Positions 1 through 10,324 of a DNA stretch of 64,000 bases are shown here, piece after piece. The translations under genes and the position numbers were made by a program. The stretch spans positions 47,616,001 to 47,680,000 of the forward strand of contig NC_090335.1 of the NCBI RefSeq assembly GCF_035084215.1, in the 5' to 3' direction. This DNA comes from Heptranchias perlo. Its lineage: Eukaryota. The notes beneath the pieces were generated by a model that worked only from the letters and a program-made list of their open reading frames with translations, was not told the origin of the DNA and did no database searches. Every line of letters starts with the position of its first letter. The stretch's first letter is position 1.

Positions 1-2365
1 ACTCATTCTGTAAGGTGTGCAAGCCACCAGGAGAGGTTGGAGAGTTCACCACTGATACCTGCTGCATGAGAGTAGCTTCCTACGGTGCCCCGTGCTGTGC
101 TGCCGCCTTAGCATGTTGATCAGCCAGCGAGTTTCCGTGGGGAAACCATTCTGCTATGAGCCCTGACTTTCCCAAGGTAGATTGGCACCTTCCTGTCTTG
201 TAGCGCCACCCAAAATTGGGAGAGCATTGCTGCGTGTTCCCGATCTGCAGTACAGAAGTTATTCTGGTGATTCAGTAGTAACAATTGTACTGTTGACGAC
301 ATAGACACACTCCGAGTAGATGTTGATAGCCACATTAGATATGATGTGAACGGCCGTCAGAAAAGCTGCCATTTCAGCCTACTGTGCACAGTGCATGTTG
401 CATTTATACTAGTACACCTGCTTGGGTAACCACTGCCAATCCAGTATGTGGTTTCCCATTTACGTGGTAGGCTGAGTTGTCAATGTAGACACTTTGCGCA
501 TTGCCTATTGGGGTCTTCAGGACTGGGTGGTGATCAAACTGTAAAATGGGCAAGGGACACGTATGTGTCTCCCCTTGGTACAATAAAAGATACGGAATGA
601 GCATTGTCTTTTTAGGGGTGACCTGGAGGTTACGTTCCATCAGCAGCAATGTCCGGTGGTTCAGTCGTTGTGACGCGACCAACGTGTTGCCAGGCTTTAG
701 CAGCAAGTGCAGAGGTGTGTGGGGAGAATGCAACACCAAAGTCTGTAGCCCAGTGATATAAGTAAAATGCTTGACTGCCCAGAAGGTTGCCAAAAGGTGT
801 CGCTCACATGGGTCGAACATCTTCTCCACTCTAGTCAGGATGCGGGATGCATAAGCAATTGGATGTGGCCGCCACTTCCAGGTAAAATGGCTGATTTGGG
901 CCTGGAGCGATTAAGCACGTAGCATGCCCAACTGCTTGCTTCAGCTCGGTTGCTGCATCGGTATGTTTGTTCTTCCAATCCTGCTGAACTGAATCATCAT
1001 TTCCCTTGAGTAAGTCATACAGCGGCTTAGCAAGTTCTGCAAATTGTGGAATGAACGATTGTTGGTACCCCACCAGCCCCAAAAATGACCAGAGAGTTGT
1101 CTTTGACACTGGCTATGGTAGCCTCTGTGTAATCTCCACTTTGTGGGTGTCAGGCAACTTTCCGTTGTGCTATAAACTGATCCCCAAAAAAATACTTCTA
1201 ATGTAGTAGCTGAGCTTTCTTGGGATTGATCTTTAGACCAGCTGTCCTTAATACTTCAGGATGTTCCGGGCAGACTATCAGATGTTGTTCTCGTGTCCTG
1301 GTGGCAATCAAAATATGATCCATCTATTGTAGAACAGACTGAGAACATCCCTTCAGTATAGATGCCTTACAATTGTGGAAGCTTATAGGGGAGTTATGGA
1401 ACCCCTATGGTAAGCATGTTCAGCTATATTGTTGGTCGTTGAATGTAAATGTGAACTTAAACTGATCCTCTGGGTGAACTGGAACACTCAATGTATTGGA
1501 GATATCGAGGGTTGTAAAGATCTTGGCTGTCCTTGGAATCTCTGCCAGCAACGTGGGTGAATTGCTCACAACAGGTGTGCATGAAGGTGTGACTGAATTC
1601 AGTTTTCTGTAATCAGTTGTTAATGGTCAACTACCATCTGGTTTCTTTACCAGCCAAATTGGTGACTTCACCATGAATGATCCCTGATGGATCGCAATTT
1701 GCTCTTAATTCAATTGCAGCCTGTACATAAGGATGGCCTTCAGTGGGCATTGGATATTGTTTACATTTACCACGAGGTAGGCCGTTAACCCTTATTTCCT
1801 TGTCTAGCCTACCACAATCATATTTATGTTTAGCCATCACCCCATCAATCTTGATTAAGATCACTTGAATGCCTGGGTCAGAATGAGTGAGGGGAGGATA
1901 TGGTTCAAGTTTCTTAATTGCATACACGGTAAAAACATCAAATATAATCGTAGAAGACATATTACCCTGTTGTCCTGTTATAGCTCTTATCCACAAACAT
2001 TGGTTAGTATAATCAATCAATATCCTGTACCGGGTTAATGCAGCAGATCCCAATAGCCCCCTATTCATTGGCATAGTCATTGCGGCTGGATCAGGTATTA
2101 GCATTTGAATACTATCCATATTCAAATCAACATGAGTTAATTGCATAGATTCCTATACAGAGCTGTTAGAGCCTTGCAGTGAATGAACAACCCTTCTGGC
2201 TCCTGCAAAGTCAGAGGGGTATAAGGTACGTAAGACAGTGACATTAGAACCAGTGTCCACTAATAACGTCTGCTGTGGGCTCCCTTTGATCACAGCAGTG
2301 ATGAAAGGCCGATTGTCACATGTCCTCCGGAACCTTATTACTGGATAATTATGGAAGCCAGAAGC
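1..2365 (-). pseudogene. pol: Decayed pro-pol of a retrovirus-like LTR element (protease, RT, tether, RNase H); integrase expected beyond the window edge
   Basis: Minus-strand translation: protease RPFITAVIKGSPQQTLLVDTGS (~2245-2315); RT FTTLDISN..QFKFTFTFNDQQYS*TCLP*GFHNSP (~1385-1520) and VLQ*MDHILIA (degenerate YMDD, ~1303-1335); SFLGLVGY thumb; tether FDPCERHLLATFWAVKHF; RNase H VYIDNSAY..AQ*AEMAA..KVRAHS..GNSLADQHAKAAA (~100-490). Many stops and frameshifts. Confidence 0.92.
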
Positions 2366-2368
2366 TTA

Positions 2369-3600
2369 TCATTGTGAGCCCGGACGAGTTGGCTCACCCT
2401 CAGACGCTGGCGCTGAGGCCTCGAATGGACCTGAGGGAGGCCACCCCGGTTAATTGCTGAGTAGCCAATAATGCAATTAATTTGTCCAATTTTAATTCAA
2501 GCAGTTTTCTCCTGGCCTTGTACAATTTAGATTAAAAACCCAAATTTCATTAAATCATTTTTATTTTGTACTCTGGTTGATTTTGTGATTGACTGGTGTA
2601 AACCAAAAGTGAAGATTGTAGGTAGTCTCCTGATCGTTAATGCATTTTAATAATTTTAAACAAATATAATCATGTCAAAGAATTTGAAGGCACTAAATCA
2701 AGTCAAAATTAACACAACTAGAGACACACTCATACACCTTAAAATATTGATTCCTTGCATTGAGTTCATAACCAATGATTCAAATTCAGTTCAAAGCTAA
2801 AAACAGAAGGACTCTATCGCAAACAACTCGAGCTTTCGCACACGCACTGAGAGAACAAACGTAAGACTGCTCATGGACTAGAGTTAAACTGCTTTAGCTC
2901 TGTAAGGGCGGAGCTTAAGCAAACATCAGAGACACATTTAACAGTAGAAAAGGAACATAATATTTCCCCCTCATGTATTCCATCAAAACTAATTTATCCT
3001 TTTTCTCTCGGACCAATTTTAAATTTCTGAAGTTTGCTACTTAAGCCAAATTTAACCCAATTTAAAATCTTGTATAGGGAAGACCCTTTTCTTAAACTTG
3101 TATGTTTCCTTCATTTGTGTGCTCCCTTAGGAGGATCATCAACATAGTTATGAAACGCCACCTCCTCCAATGCTCCCTCATTAATCTGATCATCTTCATC
3201 ACTTTCAAAACCACAACTTCTGAGTCACTGCTTCTACCATAACTGTTCACTGCCCTACCTGACTTCTGAGCGTTTGTATCTGGTTTTGACACTTGCGCTC
3301 CATTGTCTCCTCCTTTTAAACATTTCACCCATCTTAATTTTTAGTTGTGCAGAACCATATAGCATATCTGCACACATGCTCTGCTTGCCTGGTTTTATTT
3401 CCTTAGCCCTGACCTGTTCTCGTATCCAGGCACATGCCTCCTTGTTTGGTTCATCCCCTTTGGACATAACCAGGATCATTGCCTTACCTAATTTTACGAC
3501 ATCACCTTTTACTTTCTCTTCATATTGGTGGATGCAGTCCTATTCCCCTTTATTACTTGTGCTGCCTAATTGTCTAAGGGTAGCGCACTGCCCTCTCTTA
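2369..3600 (-). pseudogene. Putative gag remnant of the same element
   Basis: Lies between the PBS and the protease; ORF fragments 3255..3479 and 3092..3328; ends CAA-TGA in frame with the protease. No recognisable capsid or CCHC motif. Confidence 0.45.
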
Positions 3601-3697
3601 GTCTCTTCAACTAGTTCCCTCCCCCAGTAATTAGATTATGACCCATTACAACCTGAAGGGATTCTGCTTCTGTTACATATGCCTCGCTATTTGCCAA

Positions 3698-3715
3698 GTC
3701 CCACCAGAGTTGCCA
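3698..3715 (-). promoter_or_regulatory. Primer-binding site complementary to tRNA-Arg(TCT)
   Basis: Plus strand GTCCCACCAGAGTTGCCA matches the recalled vertebrate tRNA-Arg-TCT 3' end GTCCCACCAGAGTCGCCA at 17/18; lies 3 nt from a TG (minus-strand CA) LTR edge at 3719. Confidence 0.8.
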
Positions 3716-3724
3716 ATTTGTTGA

Positions 3725-4120
3725 GATAGAATCATAGAAGTTTACAACATGGAAACAGGCCCTTCGGCCCAACATGTCCATGTCGCCCAATTTATACCAC
3801 TAAGCTAGTCCCAATTGCCTGCACTTGGCCCATATCCCTCTATACCCATCTTACCCATGTAACTGTCCAAATGCTTTTTAAAAGACAAAATTGTACCCGC
3901 CTCTACTACTGCCTCTGGCAGCTCGTTCCAGACACTCACCACCCTTTGAGTGAAAAAATTGCCCCTCTGGACCCTTTTGTATCTCTCCCCTCTCACCTTA
4001 AATCTATGTCCCCTCATTATAGACTCCCCTACCTTTGGGAAAAGATTTTGACTATCTACCTTATCTATGCCCCTCATTATTTTATAGACTTCTATAAGAT
4101 CGCCCCTAAACCTCCTACTC
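3725..4120 (-). mobile_element. CR1 LINE 3' fragment
   Basis: ORF 3805..4077 RGHRFKV..NFFTQRVVSVWNELP..FKKHLD (CR1 ORF2 C-terminus) and (TTCTATGA)-like tail. Confidence 0.9.
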
Positions 4121-4573
4121 TGGCACCCAGCCCTAGGTTACCCTTCCAATAATTTGCTTGACAGTTCCAATTGGGTATAACAAGGCTTTATTATAACATC
4201 AGCAAAATCATCAGTACACACAGTATTTAAGCGACAATAACAGAATGCAAGATTGGTATTACGAGGCTCCAAGTCTTCTGGACAAAAGTGCAACACAAGT
4301 AGATCTCGTTCTCTGTTTAGATTTTTTTATGCTTTTTGATTTATATCTTATACTTTTGTTGGATACGCTCACTGTTGCATTTGCTGCAACTCATCTAAAA
4401 TGCATAGACTGAGTATCTTTGCTCGATTTGGCTTTAAGTGGCTTGTTGCTTACATAGATTGCTGTGTCTTTGTTTGCCTCAATTAGGTGTGAATTTCCTG
4501 TACATGATTGATCTTTGATCTTTGTTTATCAAGTAACAAGGTCAAAGGCCCTTAAAATAATTCAACAGTTAAC

Positions 4574-6562
4574 GGTTTCCCAGACCATCGCTGACCTCAT
4601 CATCTTCGGAGATTTCTTTTTCTCCTCTCCTCCTCCTTTCTCCTAGCCCTCGTGCCCCCCCCCCCCACCCCCCAAAACTGCCTCCAACCTCATAGTCCTC
4701 TAACCCCGTACAGCCCGCTTCTACCTCCTTCCCAAGAGCCACAAATAGGACTACCCTGGGAGACCCATTGTTTCAGCCTGTTCTTGCCCCACGGAACTTA
4801 TCTCAACTTTTTTTTTCTCCTTGTCCAGTCTCTTCCGACCTACATCCGTCACCTTTCTGACACCCTCCACCACTTTAACAGTTTCCAATTCCCTGGCCCA
4901 AACTGTCTCCTCTTTACCATGGATGTCCAGTCCCTCTACGCCTCCATCCCCCACCAGGAGCTCTCTGCTTCTTCCTTGAACGGAGGCCCAACGAGTCCCC
5001 ATCCACCATCACCCTTCTCCGCCTGGCTGAACTTGTTCTTACGTTGAACAACTTCTTTTGAAATAAAAACAGAAAATGCTGGAAAAGCTCAACGCTCACT
5101 TCCTCCAAATAAAAGGTGTAGTTATGGGAGCCCATATAGGTCCCAGCTATGCCTGCCTTTTTGTGGGATATGTGGAACATTCCTTGTTCCAGTCCCACTC
5201 AGGTCTCCTCCCTCGCCTCTTTTTCTGGTGCGTTGATCACTGTATCAGTGCTGCTTCCTGCTCTTGCCCTGAACGGAAAACTTCATCAACTTTCCTTCCA
5301 ATTTCCACCCTTCCCTCGCCTTCACATGGTCCATCTCCGACTCATTCCTTCCTTGGCTTCTTTATCTCCATTTCTGGGGATAGGCTGTCGACCAATATCT
5401 ACTATAAGCCTACCAACTCCCACAGCTACCTTGATTACACTTCCTCCCACCCCGCTTCCTGTAAGGGCTCTATTCCCTTCTCCCAGTTTCTCAGTCTCCA
5501 TCACGTCTGTTCTGACAATGCCACCTTCCATACCAGTGCTTCTGATATGTCTTCCTTTTTCCTCAACTAGGAATTCCCCTCCACTGTAGTTGACAGGGCC
5601 CTTGACAGTGTCTGTCCTATTTTCTGCAATTCTGCCCTCACCCCTTCCCTCCCAGAACTATTGTAGGGTTCCCCCTTGTCCTCACCTTCCACCCCACCAG
5701 CCTTGACATTCAACATATCATCTTCCAGCATGATCCCACCACCAAACACATCTTCCCACTCCCCTTTCGGCACTCCGAAGGGACCGTTCCCTCCGCAACA
5801 CCCTTGTCCACTCTTCAATCACCCCAAACCCGCTCTCCTCCCCACTGCACCTTCCTGTGCAAGTGCAGGAGATGCAACACCTGCCCTTTCACCACCTCCC
5901 TTTGCACTGTCCAGGGCCCCAAACACTCCTTCCAGGTGAAACAGCGATTTACTTGTACTGATTTCAATTTAATATACAGATTGGCTGATCGCTTTGCTGA
6001 ACACCTCTGTTCTGTCTGCAAGCGTGACCCTGACCTGCTGGTCGCTTGCCATTTTAATTCCCCTTCCCACTCTGACCTTTCTGTCCTCAGCCTCTTACAC
6101 TGTTCCAATGAAGCTCAATGGAAGCTCGAGGAACAGCACTTCATGTCTTGTTTAGGCACTTTACAAACTTCCAGGCTCAACATTGATTTTCAATAACTTT
6201 AGATCGTAGCCACTGCTCCCACTTTTTTTGGACAGCAAGTGCTGGTAATGTCTGCTGTTGCCATTTACAGCTACTCTAGACCAACCTTTTGTTTCTTAAC
6301 TTGTCCCATTATCACCCTCCTTGCCTTGCACTATCACTCTTGCCCTCTACCCTATCGCAGACCTTCCCTTTTGTTCTTTCCTCCCGCCCCTTTCCTTATC
6401 TCTGTACTTGCTTAAAAACTTTAACTCATTAACATCTTCCAGTTCTAACGAAAGGTCTTCAACCTGAAACGTTAACTGTTTCTTTCTGCACAGATGCTGC
6501 CTCACTTGCTGAGCTTTTCCTGTTTATTTCAGATTTCCAGCATCCGCAATATTTTGCTTTTG
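4574..6562 (+). mobile_element. Penelope-like retroelement (RT plus partly deleted GIY-YIG), 14-bp TSD
   Basis: LFTMDVQSLYASIPH, QIKGVVMGAHIGPSYACLFVGYVE, YYKPTNSHSYLDY, CRRCNTC..FTCTDFNLIY/RLADRFAEH (the YIG segment is missing); TSD ATTCAACAGTTAAC at 4560-4573 and 6563-6576. Confidence 0.9.
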
Positions 6563-7233
6563 ATTCAACAGTTAACAGGATTATCTTTTTTTTAATTTCC
6601 TTTGTTTGATAAGTTTTGACTAGCTTTATCTTCTCCTTTCCTGGGCAAACGTGATCTTGAGTGACACCATTTGCATCTATACAACAGTCAGTTGATAGGC
6701 AGGGACATGTTTTGACTACTTTGATTTGACAATTACCTTGTACAGGACATACATTGTTGACATCTGTTCCCTGATCAATAGAGATCTCTTATCAGCAGAA
6801 CTGCCAATTCTTGTGTTTTTTAATATTCCATTCTTCTATCTGACCCTTTTGGGCACTGGGCACTTTTTTAGTATAAGCTAGCTACTTTTATTCTCTTGCA
6901 ATATTATCTTCGAGCCGGTCCACAGTATTCCTGGCCTATGTCCACATTTTAAAATAGGTTCGATAGGTGGTTAAAGGAAAGAGGGATATGGGAACAGAAT
7001 GGGCATATGGAATTAAGACTACTGCTCATGTGCAGGAAATATAATTCAATGCAAGCTAACTCCCTTCTAACTTAAATATATCTTGTTCCTTTGAGACTGA
7101 CTTGATGATGTACCTCATGCATGATCTCGGTCAAGGTGTACTGCAACACCCTTCAGACAGAATGGCCAAGTTCAGATAACTGTTGGGGTTTGGAATGCAC
7201 TTGGGAGAAACCTTACTAATTTCTGTATTACAG

Positions 7234-7620
7234 CCCAGATCCTAAAGGTCACTACAATCGGAGGGAGCCTCACTTTGAACAAGGGTGACTGGATTGATCT
7301 CATCTGCAGTGTAACAGGAGTTGAAGACACGGTCACGGTTGAGGTCAGCTGGTATTTAAGCACATCTCCAGCAACTGATGCTCCAAACAAGAAACCTCTT
7401 GTGCACATGAACCGTGCAGCAGTAGTGAACAATTCAGATTTTGTCTCACTAAGCAGGAGTAGTGGCAGCGACTACAGACTGAGAGTGCTACAAATTGATG
7501 AAACAGACAGTGGATATTACTACTGTGCAGCCTTTGTCTGGATCCAGTATGCTAGTGAAATGTGGCACAAAGCAGCAGAGAGAAGGTCCAATCCTGTCAG
7601 TGTCGCTGTTAATCTTCTAG
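7234..7620 (+). CDS. PTGFRN: PTGFRN exon, Ig domain 3
   Basis: ttacag|..ctag|gtaatt; 387 bp, phase 1-1; LICSV..VSWY..DSGYYYC..W..WHKAAE. Confidence 0.93.
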
Positions 7621-7689
7621 GTAATTTCATTCTTCAGTGTTTTACAAATGCTAGAATAATTGTTGATTATGCCCAATGGTACATGTGAA

Positions 7690-7800
7690 GTAACAGAACA
7701 TTTACCTGGAATAGGAATGGGAGTAGGCCACTCAGCCCCTCAAGCCTGTTCTGCCATTCAAATTAGATCATGGCTGATCTGCATCAACTCCATTTACTTG
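7690..7800 (-). mobile_element. Short CR1-type 3' end
   Basis: GAGTAGGCCACTCAGCCCCTCAAGCCTGTTCTGCCATTC..ATCATGGCTGATC, same as the termini at 23500 and 41340. Confidence 0.65.
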
Positions 7801-8336
7801 CCTTGTGTCTTGTGTTCATTACATCTGAAAATGACACCTTGACACATACATTGTACAATATTAAAATGGAAAAGATTCTAATTAAACCACTTACATAAAG
7901 CTAACTCACATTAGCTGTCTTTTTGCGAAGAATGGTGGTTGCAAGCGGGTTTACGCTATTGGAAAGCACATTCCAACAGTATCCTTTACGCTAAAAGGAA
8001 GGCACCCTTTGAATAATGGACATCCTACATACTAAGGGGACCCGAGGCTGTAGCTGGTCAGCTGCCAGGTTCATATTGATCGGGTCACAGATTGTAGGTG
8101 GACATTCATAGTATAAAAATCCTATTCTAAGTGAAATGTTCTTATAACAGGATTTCGCCTGCTTAACATGTTTATTGATAAAAATCCAACAAACTTTTTA
8201 TATTAATTTAAAATAGTTACATATGGGATCGCGTATAAGTACATTGAACTGTATCCAGTGGCTTTTCTGTAGTTAGTTAGTGTTAATTTCGAGGTTCACA
8301 TTACAGAGGTAAACTTTGTTCTAATCACAACCACAG

Positions 8337-8759
8337 CTCCTACATATACTGTTCAGCTAACCTCCACGAAGATACCTAGTTCCTCGGGGGAGGCAGCAGA
8401 GCTTGAGTGCCGAGTGTTGGATTTACAAAATGCAGACGATGTGAAGCTGACTACGACCTGGTATTTCAACCCAAAAGGGCAGGATGGTGTTGCCAAAGGA
8501 AGTGTTCCTATAGCAACGATGGATCAGGATTGGACACTAAAATTGGACGATAAGTATAATGAGCGAGCAGAAAAGGGAGAGATCATTTTTATGAAGCCTG
8601 CGCTACATGTTTTCAAGTTTCAGATGCAACATGCTCTTGTCTCTGACAGAGGAGAATATTTTTGCAATGTTTCTGCCTGGATTAAACAACGAGATGATGC
8701 GTGGTTGAAAAAACAGGAAATCTCTTCAGTCGCCATTGATGTGTTTTGGAAAACGGAAG
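8337..8759 (+). CDS. PTGFRN: PTGFRN exon, Ig domain 4
   Basis: ccacag|..gaag|gtaaaa; 423 bp; MDQDWTLK..DRGEYFCNVSAWIKQR, matching recalled human MDGDWTLK..DRGNYYCVVSAWTKQR. Confidence 0.95.
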
Positions 8760-9277
8760 GTAAAATGTTCCTACAGTTTCTGCAAGGTCTCTGGTTTGTT
8801 TTTTAAATCCTGTGTTTTGCTGTCGTTTTAAAACTTTTTTTTCTTTTTAAAAATATAGAACAATATTTAAATTCTTGGTCAACACTTGTAAATGCTGTTG
8901 CAGACAAGTTTGAGGATGTTTTTTCTTCTGTGAAAGTTATTTTTGAGAATGTTTAAATGGTTTACATTGGCCAGATTTTTTTTAAAATCCCCTCCTTTTC
9001 CATGCTGCCAACTCCTAGGGAGGTGCCTAACCTCTGCTCATTCTCCATGACAACATGGTTGAGATTGGGCGAACAAGTTGTGGGGTGCTGTGGGCACTAA
9101 CTCTCATCCTACCCTTTCATTGTGCACTATACCCTGCTATCTCTAGTAGAATAATTCATGACTAAGGTTAGTATGTAGTATACATCATATATAATGCCTT
9201 TAGATAGTAGCAGCTGCTGGTTTAGAATTACAATGAACCTGTCTTTCATTGCATTTAACGTTCCCTTAATTTCTTAG

Positions 9278-9691
9278 ACCCAAGCCTGAGTATTACAGCG
9301 ACAGAGGAGAAACCAGTATCTACGAGAGGCAACACTTTTGAGATGACTTGTAGTGTTTCTGCAGAGCATGTTGAAGTGCCTCATTACTCAGTGGTTATAG
9401 CAATGAATGAACCAGCCTTTACTGATGCAAAGGATAGCAAGAGGCTAATTTCGTTGACTCGAGACTCAGTGGTCAAACTGGAGAAGTGGGACATCAAGGA
9501 TCGGTCGGAGGATGTTGTTCTAGAGAAAGTCGGTGACAAAGAATTCCGTTTCCGGCTGTACAGGACCCAATTTTCCGATGAAGGATCGTATTACTGTATT
9601 GTCCATGCTTGGGTTCCAGATACAAACGGAGGGTGGTCTGAAGCAGTTGCAAACTCATCCAACACAGTAGCTGTTGCCTTTAAAACAGCAG
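9278..9691 (+). CDS. PTGFRN: PTGFRN exon, Ig domain 5
   Basis: tcttag|..gcag|gtggtt; 414 bp; GNTFEMTC..DSVVKLEKW..VVLEKV..EFRFRLYRTQFSD. Confidence 0.95.
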
Positions 9692-10324
9692 GTGGTTTCT
9701 TAATTTAATCAACAAATTGAGGGTCATTAACAGATGAAATGGTGGTGTAGGCATGTGGATCGACAGAAGACTGCTGACCTTGTAATAATATACCATATAT
9801 AATGTGTGGATGGTTTGATTGTAGTTTAGAATCTGGAAAGCTTACAATCTTGGGTACAGTAGTACAGGTAGGGAGGGAGATAATGCAAATTGACCTAGAC
9901 AACGTGCATCTCCAGTAGCGGGCTGAATTGGTAAACTGGCAAAGGCTTAGGAGTAACTTACCTGACCTTCTCTCAACTAACAAATCATGGGCAATGTGGA
10001 AGACCTAAAGAAGGAGTGGTAAACATGTGAAAGTAACTAGTTTTTAAATTAAAACTCATCATTGGGAATGGATCTTAATTTTAAAAGAAACCAGATTTAC
10101 AAATACAAAGCGATATTGAAGAAGGGTGGGAGGAAGCTCACATGGAGCATAAACACCAGCATGGACCCATTGGACGGAATGGCTTCTTTCTGTGCTATAC
10201 ATTCTTTTATAATTCTTTATTATATAGTAACTAAGGGAACATTTTTCTATAACTGATTAGATACTTGAACTTTTTGCAGGAGTGTCCCAGCTATTTAACT
10301 TTGTGCCTATCATGGAGCTATAGG

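What the first reader, a model, noticed from the sequence alone, without database searches (positions are those of the whole stretch)
1..3720. Antisense intronic retrovirus-like element with dual RNase H, possibly a lokiretrovirus-like lineage in a cartilaginous fish
Seen: order protease (LLVDTGS), RT (LDISN, KFTFTF, LP*GFHNSP, *MDH from YMDD), then a Gypsy-like RNase H/tether (PCERHLLATFWAVKHF), then a second retroviral-type RNase H (VYID.S, AQ.AE, KVRAHS, GNSLAD). Established: tether plus RNase H is the retrovirus architecture and is not seen in ordinary vertebrate Gypsy elements. Inference: the well-preserved first RNase H and the LDISN/FHNSP signatures fit lokiretroviruses or a basal spuma-like lineage better than the epsilon-like ERVs typical of fish. 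From memory, lokiretroviruses were described mainly outside Chondrichthyes, so this could extend their host range.
Basis: partly seen in the sequence, partly recalled or inferred. Interest (0 to 1): 0.72.

Follow-up and report, generated by a model that had tools for sequence, protein, structure and literature searches.

The report
Shark retrovirus fossil, F-type envelope
This is a dead, broken retrovirus copy in an intron of what is likely a shark gene; it is not a lokiretrovirus but a close relative of a known elephant-shark retrovirus, whose family likely carries a measles/RSV-type fusion envelope instead of the usual one, while likely true lokiretrovirus remnants lie elsewhere in the same genome.

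Summary
In detail: protease, RT, tether and a second RNase H lie on the minus strand, followed left of the window by integrase and the first ~450 bp of env. The element sits antisense in an intron of an Ig-domain gene. The loki reading fails. RT lies among canonical retroviruses (100/92), outside loki (100/100), with amphibian and coelacanth class III ERVs near snakehead retrovirus; the AU rejection is borderline (p=0.0497). By eye, a sister copy's RT is ~72% identical to published elephant-shark CmiERV lineage I, so the lineage is already catalogued. The family has about 40 or more decayed copies, LTRs 8-13% diverged and tRNA-Arg primer sites. Two points are new or less known. (1) The family env (~2.4 kb) has a furin site and likely a paramyxo/pneumovirus F-type fold (ESM features, weak Foldseek), whereas CmiERV-I carries a gamma-type env, which implies an env swap within one Pol lineage. 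The scan found this Pol/F-env pairing before on other genomes. (2) Six degraded RT fragments elsewhere in this genome fall in the loki clade, although the loki paper found none in 6 chondrichthyan genomes.

The parts
6564..6910 (-). 5' LTR, first piece (long ~0.9-1 kb LTR subtype); start decayed
   Evidence: 74-75% match to both LTRs of the C12 sister copy
4576..6563 (+). Later insertion splitting the LTR; RT/endonuclease-like ORFs, Penelope-like (label recalled, no Pfam hit)
   Evidence: gap in the LTR match; ORFs; no significant Pfam hit
4122..4575 (-). 5' LTR, second piece
   Evidence: 81-87% match to C12 LTRs
3730..4121 (-). Later insertion, 3' end of a CR1-type LINE (label recalled)
   Evidence: gap in the LTR match; ORF 3805-4137
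3719..3729 (-). End of 5' LTR (...CAACA)
   Evidence: matches the C12 LTR end
3698..3715 (-). Primer-binding site, 17 of 18 nt complementary to a host tRNA-Arg(UCU) 3' end
2369..3560 (-). gag, broken and internally deleted; same frame as pol with a stop between them; a zinc knuckle is seen in a sister copy
   Evidence: zf-CCHC E 1.4e-8 in L005
1990..2365 (-). aspartic protease (LLVDTGS at 2246-2266)
   Evidence: RVP E 0.004; tblastn
1005..1762 (-). reverse transcriptase, with frameshifts and stops; catalytic motif broken
   Evidence: RT trees
620..1004 (-). connection/tether (degenerate Gypsy-type RNase H)
   Evidence: PF17917 E 7e-12 and PF17919
110..500 (-). second, retroviral RNase H, frameshifted
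   Evidence: motifs; PF00075 E 9e-12 and 5e-9 in sister copies; tblastn
1..109 (-). linker into integrase. Integrase (about 1.2 kb) and the first ~450 bp of env lie left of the window in L011; the rest of env and the 3' LTR are missing from this copy
   Evidence: rve E 4e-15; no 3' LTR or env 3' part in 30 kb to the left
7125..9708 (+). Host exons encoding Ig V-set domains (EWI/PTGFRN-like; label recalled), downstream side of the intron
   Evidence: Pfam V-set; upstream exon at L011:7331-7717

Best explanation
This is a dead, truncated provirus of a multi-copy class III endogenous retrovirus family, likely the shark counterpart of elephant-shark CmiERV lineage I, lying antisense in an intron, and its family likely entered cells with a paramyxo/pneumovirus F-type envelope. 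Shown: LTR-PBS-gag-stop-pro-RT-tether-RNase H-IN-env-PPT-LTR layout across copies, tRNA-Arg primer sites, RT outside the loki clade, and an env with signal-like start, basic furin-type site, heptad helices, Cys-rich region and membrane anchor. Inferred: it replicated as an ordinary orthoretrovirus-like virus (tRNA-Arg priming, Pol made by stop read-through, 4-bp target duplication); many copies later lost env internally; this copy lost env's 3' part and its 3' LTR and took two insertions in the 5' LTR. It has no function today. Since CmiERV-I has a gamma-type env on nearly the same Pol, env was likely exchanged at least once in this lineage.
For: RT tree, 64 rows: window with 2 sister copies 100/94, plus P0061 100/97, plus X. 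tropicalis Pol 97/95, in a 98/91 clade of amphibian and coelacanth ERVs; canonical retroviruses 100/92; loki 100/100 apart. Reference labels were checked against the loki paper's named RTs and database names. RT blastp bits: Xenopus 259, SnRV 197, loki 149-155, foamy 141, epsilon 136. CmiERV-I (PMC4422223 supplement 1, part 1): 97 of 134 RT residues identical to P0002 by my manual count, same tether and integrase-end motifs, and a gamma-type ISD/CX6CC env read by eye. LTR pairs in 5 sister copies, K2P 0.077-0.133; a 4-bp flank match with one mismatch in 5 of 5. PBS matched to host tRNA-Arg genes. Env ~2.4 kb in 4 copies. ESM Atlas: family env piece to Baculo_F 0.90; homologous env of another family to Fusion glycoprotein F0 PF00523 0.93 with 205 shared features. 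Foldseek PDB: top 10 rows are all foamy Env, RSV, hMPV or measles F.
Against: The AU test of window family plus loki is only borderline (p 0.0497, delta lnL 31.9). The tie to SnRV itself is weak (90/68, unresolved). CmiERV-I could not be placed in my trees; its similarity rests on a manual comparison. The F-type fold is not shown by a good model: both AlphaFold runs were poor (pLDDT 30 and 38), Foldseek PDB E-values were 0.013-0.16 with TM ~0.1, the VIA search was uninformative, Pfam and PDB sequence searches found nothing, and Atlas recognition values were below its confidence line. The folded proteins belong to other ERV families of this genome, 24-38% identical to the window family's env pieces. 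No alpha, beta, delta, lenti or Odin RT was in the trees.
Confidence: 0.85

Rival explanations
1. It is a lokiretrovirus or a basal loki-like lineage.
For: Dual RNase H; likely F-type env, and by eye the same order of motifs as the loki Env proteins shown; relatives are auto-named NYNRIN-like; AU rejection only borderline.
Against: Outside the loki clade in four trees. Lacks the loki RT signatures. Scores higher to SnRV-side RTs. Real loki fragments from the same genome go to the loki clade in the same trees. Env is ~800 codons with an N-terminal extension; the loki Envs seen lack it.
Confidence: 0.04
2. It is a foamy-like (Spumaretrovirinae, clade Tu) ERV.
For: Best PDB RT hits are foamy Pol (E 4e-38); YVDD motif; the best PDB fold row for env is foamy Env.
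Against: Feline foamy virus branches apart; the PDB holds no SnRV-type RT. Gag has a CCHC knuckle and pol follows gag in frame after a stop; foamy viruses lack the knuckle and splice pol (recalled).
Confidence: 0.04
3. Class III ERV as above, but the env is an unrelated class I fusogen or only superficially F-like.
For: No significant sequence hit; low-confidence models; torovirus spike, baculovirus F and walleye virus Env also rank among the weak Foldseek rows.
Against: Atlas features, Foldseek PDB ranking and motif order agree on the F/foamy type; I saw no ISD or CX6CC in alignment A1.
Confidence: 0.12

Closest known systems
CmiERV lineage I of elephant shark (Han 2015, PMC4422223; whole text and supplement 1 part 1 read)
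   Same: Pol: about 72% RT identity over 134 residues by manual count, same tether, RNase H and integrase-end motifs; zinc-knuckle gag; chondrichthyan host; clusters with SnRV in that paper
   Different: CmiERV-I has a gamma-type env (ISD, CX6CC) and a different PBS, both read by eye; this family has a likely F-type env and tRNA-Arg PBS, and many decayed copies
Snakehead retrovirus and clade Huo / class III ERVs (Xu et al. 2018, PMC6001957; passages read)
   Same: LDISNGFW-type RT, YVDD, tether plus RNase H; RT neighbourhood in the trees. Clade III makes up most chondrichthyan ERV RTs (PMC11089739, passages)
   Different: SnRV itself is only ~39-43% identical in RT and its sister position is weakly supported; SnRV env was not compared
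Lokiretroviruses (Wang and Han 2021, PMC7947760; parts 1-3 of 4 of the text and supplement passages read)
   Same: Dual RNase H; env of likely Mononegavirales F type with a furin site
   Different: Different RT clade and signatures; longer env with an N-terminal extension
Foamy virus Env (Fernandez et al. 2024, PMC11468914; passages read)
   Same: A retroviral Env sharing the paramyxo/pneumovirus F core
   Different: Different Pol clade; a signal-peptide-like start and C-terminal anchor rather than the foamy leader peptide (layout inferred)

Membership tests
Lokiretrovirus | RT within the loki clade, sister to canonical retroviruses | tested here: not met
   AU p 0.0497
Lokiretrovirus | Loki RT signatures (PLSRWP, CPFGYxNSPxEFNIF) as seen in the published alignment | tested here: not met
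Lokiretrovirus | Tether plus second RNase H | tested here: met
   shared with SnRV and epsilon-like Pol, so not diagnostic
Lokiretrovirus | Env similar to Mononegavirales F | tested here: inconclusive
   Atlas 0.90 and 0.93, Foldseek top rows all F or foamy but weak; no Pfam PF00523 hit
Lokiretrovirus | Integrase closest to CGIN1/NYNRIN; RNase H grouping with foamy | not tested
   no IN or RH tree built; IN blastp does not favour loki (81-86 bits against 125 for Xenopus)
SnRV-related class III ERV (clade Huo, CmiERV lineage I) | RT among class III canonical retroviruses near SnRV | tested here: met
   (SnRV sister 90/68, weak; class placement firm); manual 97 of 134 identity to CmiERV-I
SnRV-related class III ERV (clade Huo, CmiERV lineage I) | LTR-gag-pol-env-LTR with tRNA PBS, PPT and short target duplication | tested here: met
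   (in sister copies; the window copy lacks the 3' end)
CmiERV lineage I sensu stricto | Gamma-type env (ISD, CX6CC) | tested here: not met
   present in CmiERV-I by eye; not seen in this family's env
Spumaretrovirinae | RT in the foamy clade | tested here: not met
   only feline foamy virus and one unnamed relative as references
Spumaretrovirinae | Gag without zinc knuckle (recalled) | tested here: not met
   zf-CCHC E 1.4e-8 in a sister copy
Odin retrotransposons | Dual RNase H without env, RT sister to loki | tested here: not met
   env present; RT not on the loki side; no Odin reference was in the tree
Gypsy/Metaviridae | Single RNase H, RT outside Retroviridae | tested here: not met

The most novel reading that the evidence does not exclude
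F-type envelopes are not a loki or foamy speciality but an old, widespread envelope of aquatic class III retroviruses. Several shark Pol lineages carry one, one of them swapped it against a gamma-type env (CmiERV-I), and cartilaginous fishes also once hosted true lokiretroviruses, whose relics remain in this genome. That would put F-type Env near the root of retroviruses and close the last fish gap in loki host range.
Probability: 0.4. Interest if true: 0.72.

Novelty: new variant of a known kind. Interest (0 to 1): 0.5.

Why it matters
The locus itself is an ordinary dead ERV. Its family bears on an open question: whether canonical retroviruses and lokiretroviruses gained env independently, the scenario preferred in PMC9040795. 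An F-type env on a canonical class III Pol, next to a near-identical Pol with a gamma-type env, favours env replacement and an older F-type envelope, and removes F-like env as a loki marker. The loki-clade RT relics would be, as far as my searches show, unreported for Chondrichthyes.

Tried and rejected
Env by sequence: Pfam, PDB phmmer and profile searches and one protein-database search gave nothing significant. AlphaFold failed twice. VIA-align gave only helical-bundle matches, with foamy Env at rank 17, Z 5.0, so the fold test is inconclusive. A viral-contig scan with the env alignment could not run. An early reading that the family is env-less (short gap before the 3' LTR in C5a, C6b and C9) was rejected once copies with ~2.4 kb env were found. 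The apparent LTR pair in C13 proved to be a LINE piece. No loki integrase or tether was found within 10 kb each side of the best loki relic, and a second loki query was crowded out by young class III copies under a stricter filter. The 65-row careful tree did not finish; the quick tree is reported. Literature: searches listed no report of loki in cartilaginous fish (129 was swamped by unrelated papers; 10 of 15 and 2 of 4 papers were listed). Searches listed no report of an F-type env on SnRV-related ERVs. Subscription journals and Repbase were not searched, bioRxiv supplements were not seen, and the SnRV genome paper was not read.

Full report
Observation. Pfam confirms the tether in the window and RT, a second RNase H, integrase and a gag zinc knuckle in the left flank or in sister copies. 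The window is G000:C11:47616001-47680000. Integrase follows left of position 1. Ig V-set exons on the plus strand flank the element on both sides, so it is intronic and antisense. Pol falls into six pieces with 10 stops counted in them. The family motif is YVDD (5 of 10 loci), not YMDD.

Family and anatomy. A DNA search returned 68 matches from 40 scored of 112 candidates; the long matches are 77-85% identical to the window. Ten sister copies were read on both sides. LTR pairs were measured in five copies (C5a, C6b, C9, C12, and C18): TG...CA ends (decayed in some), a polypurine tract, K2P distances 0.077-0.133, and 4-bp flanks matching at 3 of 4 positions in 5 of 5. With the two rates used in PMC4422223 this is 17-30 or 175-300 million years, so the age is poorly fixed. 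Primer sites match host tRNA-Arg genes. In the window the 5' LTR spans about 3719-6910 in three pieces split by two later insertions. Env breaks off about 450 bp after integrase, and no 3' LTR lies in 30 kb to the left. Gag and pol share a frame with a stop between them.

Placement. The nearest named proteins are X. tropicalis, other frog and coelacanth Pol at 49-53%. I identified references by matching them to the named RTs in the loki paper's supplement (SnRV = P0013; Loki-Lca, Loki-Lro and an Aro-like RT) and by database names (feline foamy virus, WEHV1). ERV-L-like labels are my own, from motif likeness to HERV-L. A FastTree of 111 rows and an IQ-TREE of 64 of them put the window among canonical retroviruses (100/92) and outside loki (100/100), sister to an unnamed protein P0061 and to Xenopus, inside a 98/91 clade. 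SnRV is sister to that clade at only 90/68 and is unresolved in the later trees. Forcing the family into loki costs 31.9 log-likelihood units, p-AU 0.0497, a borderline rejection. The supplement of Han 2015 gives CmiERV lineage I, which that paper clusters with SnRV. Reading it by eye, its RT matches sister copy P0002 at 97 of 134 residues, it shares a 16-residue stretch with P0061, and it shows the same tether and integrase-end motifs. The Pol lineage is therefore already catalogued in a chondrichthyan, and clade III dominates chondrichthyan ERVs. The host is inferred to be a cartilaginous fish from this and from env homologues named in a skate and a sawshark; I did not determine the species.

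Envelope. Several sister copies have internal env deletions, but four span about 2.4 kb from integrase end to LTR. Natural open pieces show a signal-like start, a basic furin-type site followed by a glycine-rich segment, heptad helices, a cysteine-rich region and a membrane anchor, with no ISD or CX6CC that I could see. Sequence searches gave nothing. The ESM Atlas placed a family piece with Baculo_F (0.90) and the homologous env of another family with Fusion glycoprotein F0 (0.93), both under the Atlas's recognition line. AlphaFold models were poor. VIA-align was uninformative. By eye the motif order parallels the loki Env proteins. I rate the F-type call at about 0.85. CmiERV-I instead has a gamma-type env (by eye), so env was likely exchanged within one Pol lineage. 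Frequent env/pol recombination in anamniotes is reported in bioRxiv 2021.11.23.469661 (abstract and passages). F-type Env is established for foamy virus and for loki. Four earlier notes of this scan describe the same Pol/F-env pairing in other genomes; I saw them after forming my reading, and they are not independent support.

Real loki relics. A loki RT query against the genome gave one outlier among 150 matches (50% identity, E 5e-58). A DNA search with it gave 10 matches, of which five more yielded RT fragments. All six group with loki and L107 carries the loki signatures. They lie on chromosome-scale contigs and carry stops, as old insertions would. Wang and Han list 0 of 6 chondrichthyan genomes, and my searches listed no later report. 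Only RT was recovered, so these could also be an env-less loki/Odin-type element; no Odin reference was in the trees.

Verdict. The locus is a dead class III ERV of a lineage already known from elephant shark, not a lokiretrovirus. The likely F-type env on this Pol, the implied env swap and the loki relics elsewhere in the genome make it a new variant of a known kind. Interest 0.5.

Noticed in passing
L107 (G000:C6:98784582-98785402), L124 (C5), L125 and L126 (C7), L128 (C6), L129 (C8): Degraded RT fragments with loki signatures. A loki RT query found L107 at 50% identity, E 5e-58, against 33-41% for the other 149 matches. 6 of 6 fragments placed fall in the loki clade (SH-aLRT 99; L107 100/98). 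The loki paper lists 0 of 6 chondrichthyan genomes. No other loki gene was found near L107.
   Followed up: partly
G000, many contigs: At least three younger ERV families carry homologous envs; some copies have LTR pairs 98-99.8% identical and long open frames, and some lack most of pol while keeping gag and env. Two fall in the same class III clade as the window family; one (L075) has a Pol on a different branch, near a horn-shark protein.
   Followed up: partly
L071 and L072 env N-terminal ~200 residues; proteins P0006 and P0009: Weak Ig-domain hits (E 0.1-0.35) at the front of the related env; two amphibian relatives' gene models also run from pol into an Ig-like sequence (by eye). Possibly an Ig-type receptor-binding domain.
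   Followed up: no
sister copies C5a, C6b, C9, C18 against C12 and the window: Two LTR subtypes (~325 bp and ~0.9-1 kb) go with two primer sites, matching tRNA-Arg(UCG) and tRNA-Arg(UCU).
   Followed up: partly
L002 and L047, integrase core: A 27-bp unit inside integrase is tandemly expanded, to more than 2 kb in L047, in two separate copies.
   Followed up: no
Walleye dermal sarcoma virus and WEHV1 Env rank 3rd and 4th (E ~0.007) in the weak viral Foldseek list, a hint that epsilonretrovirus Env may also be F-type.
   Followed up: no
L050 and L052 (G000:C38): An env-to-LTR fragment of this family is repeated at about 10 places on C38, beside a GPCR-like ORF in the two loci read, suggesting segmental duplication.
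   Followed up: no
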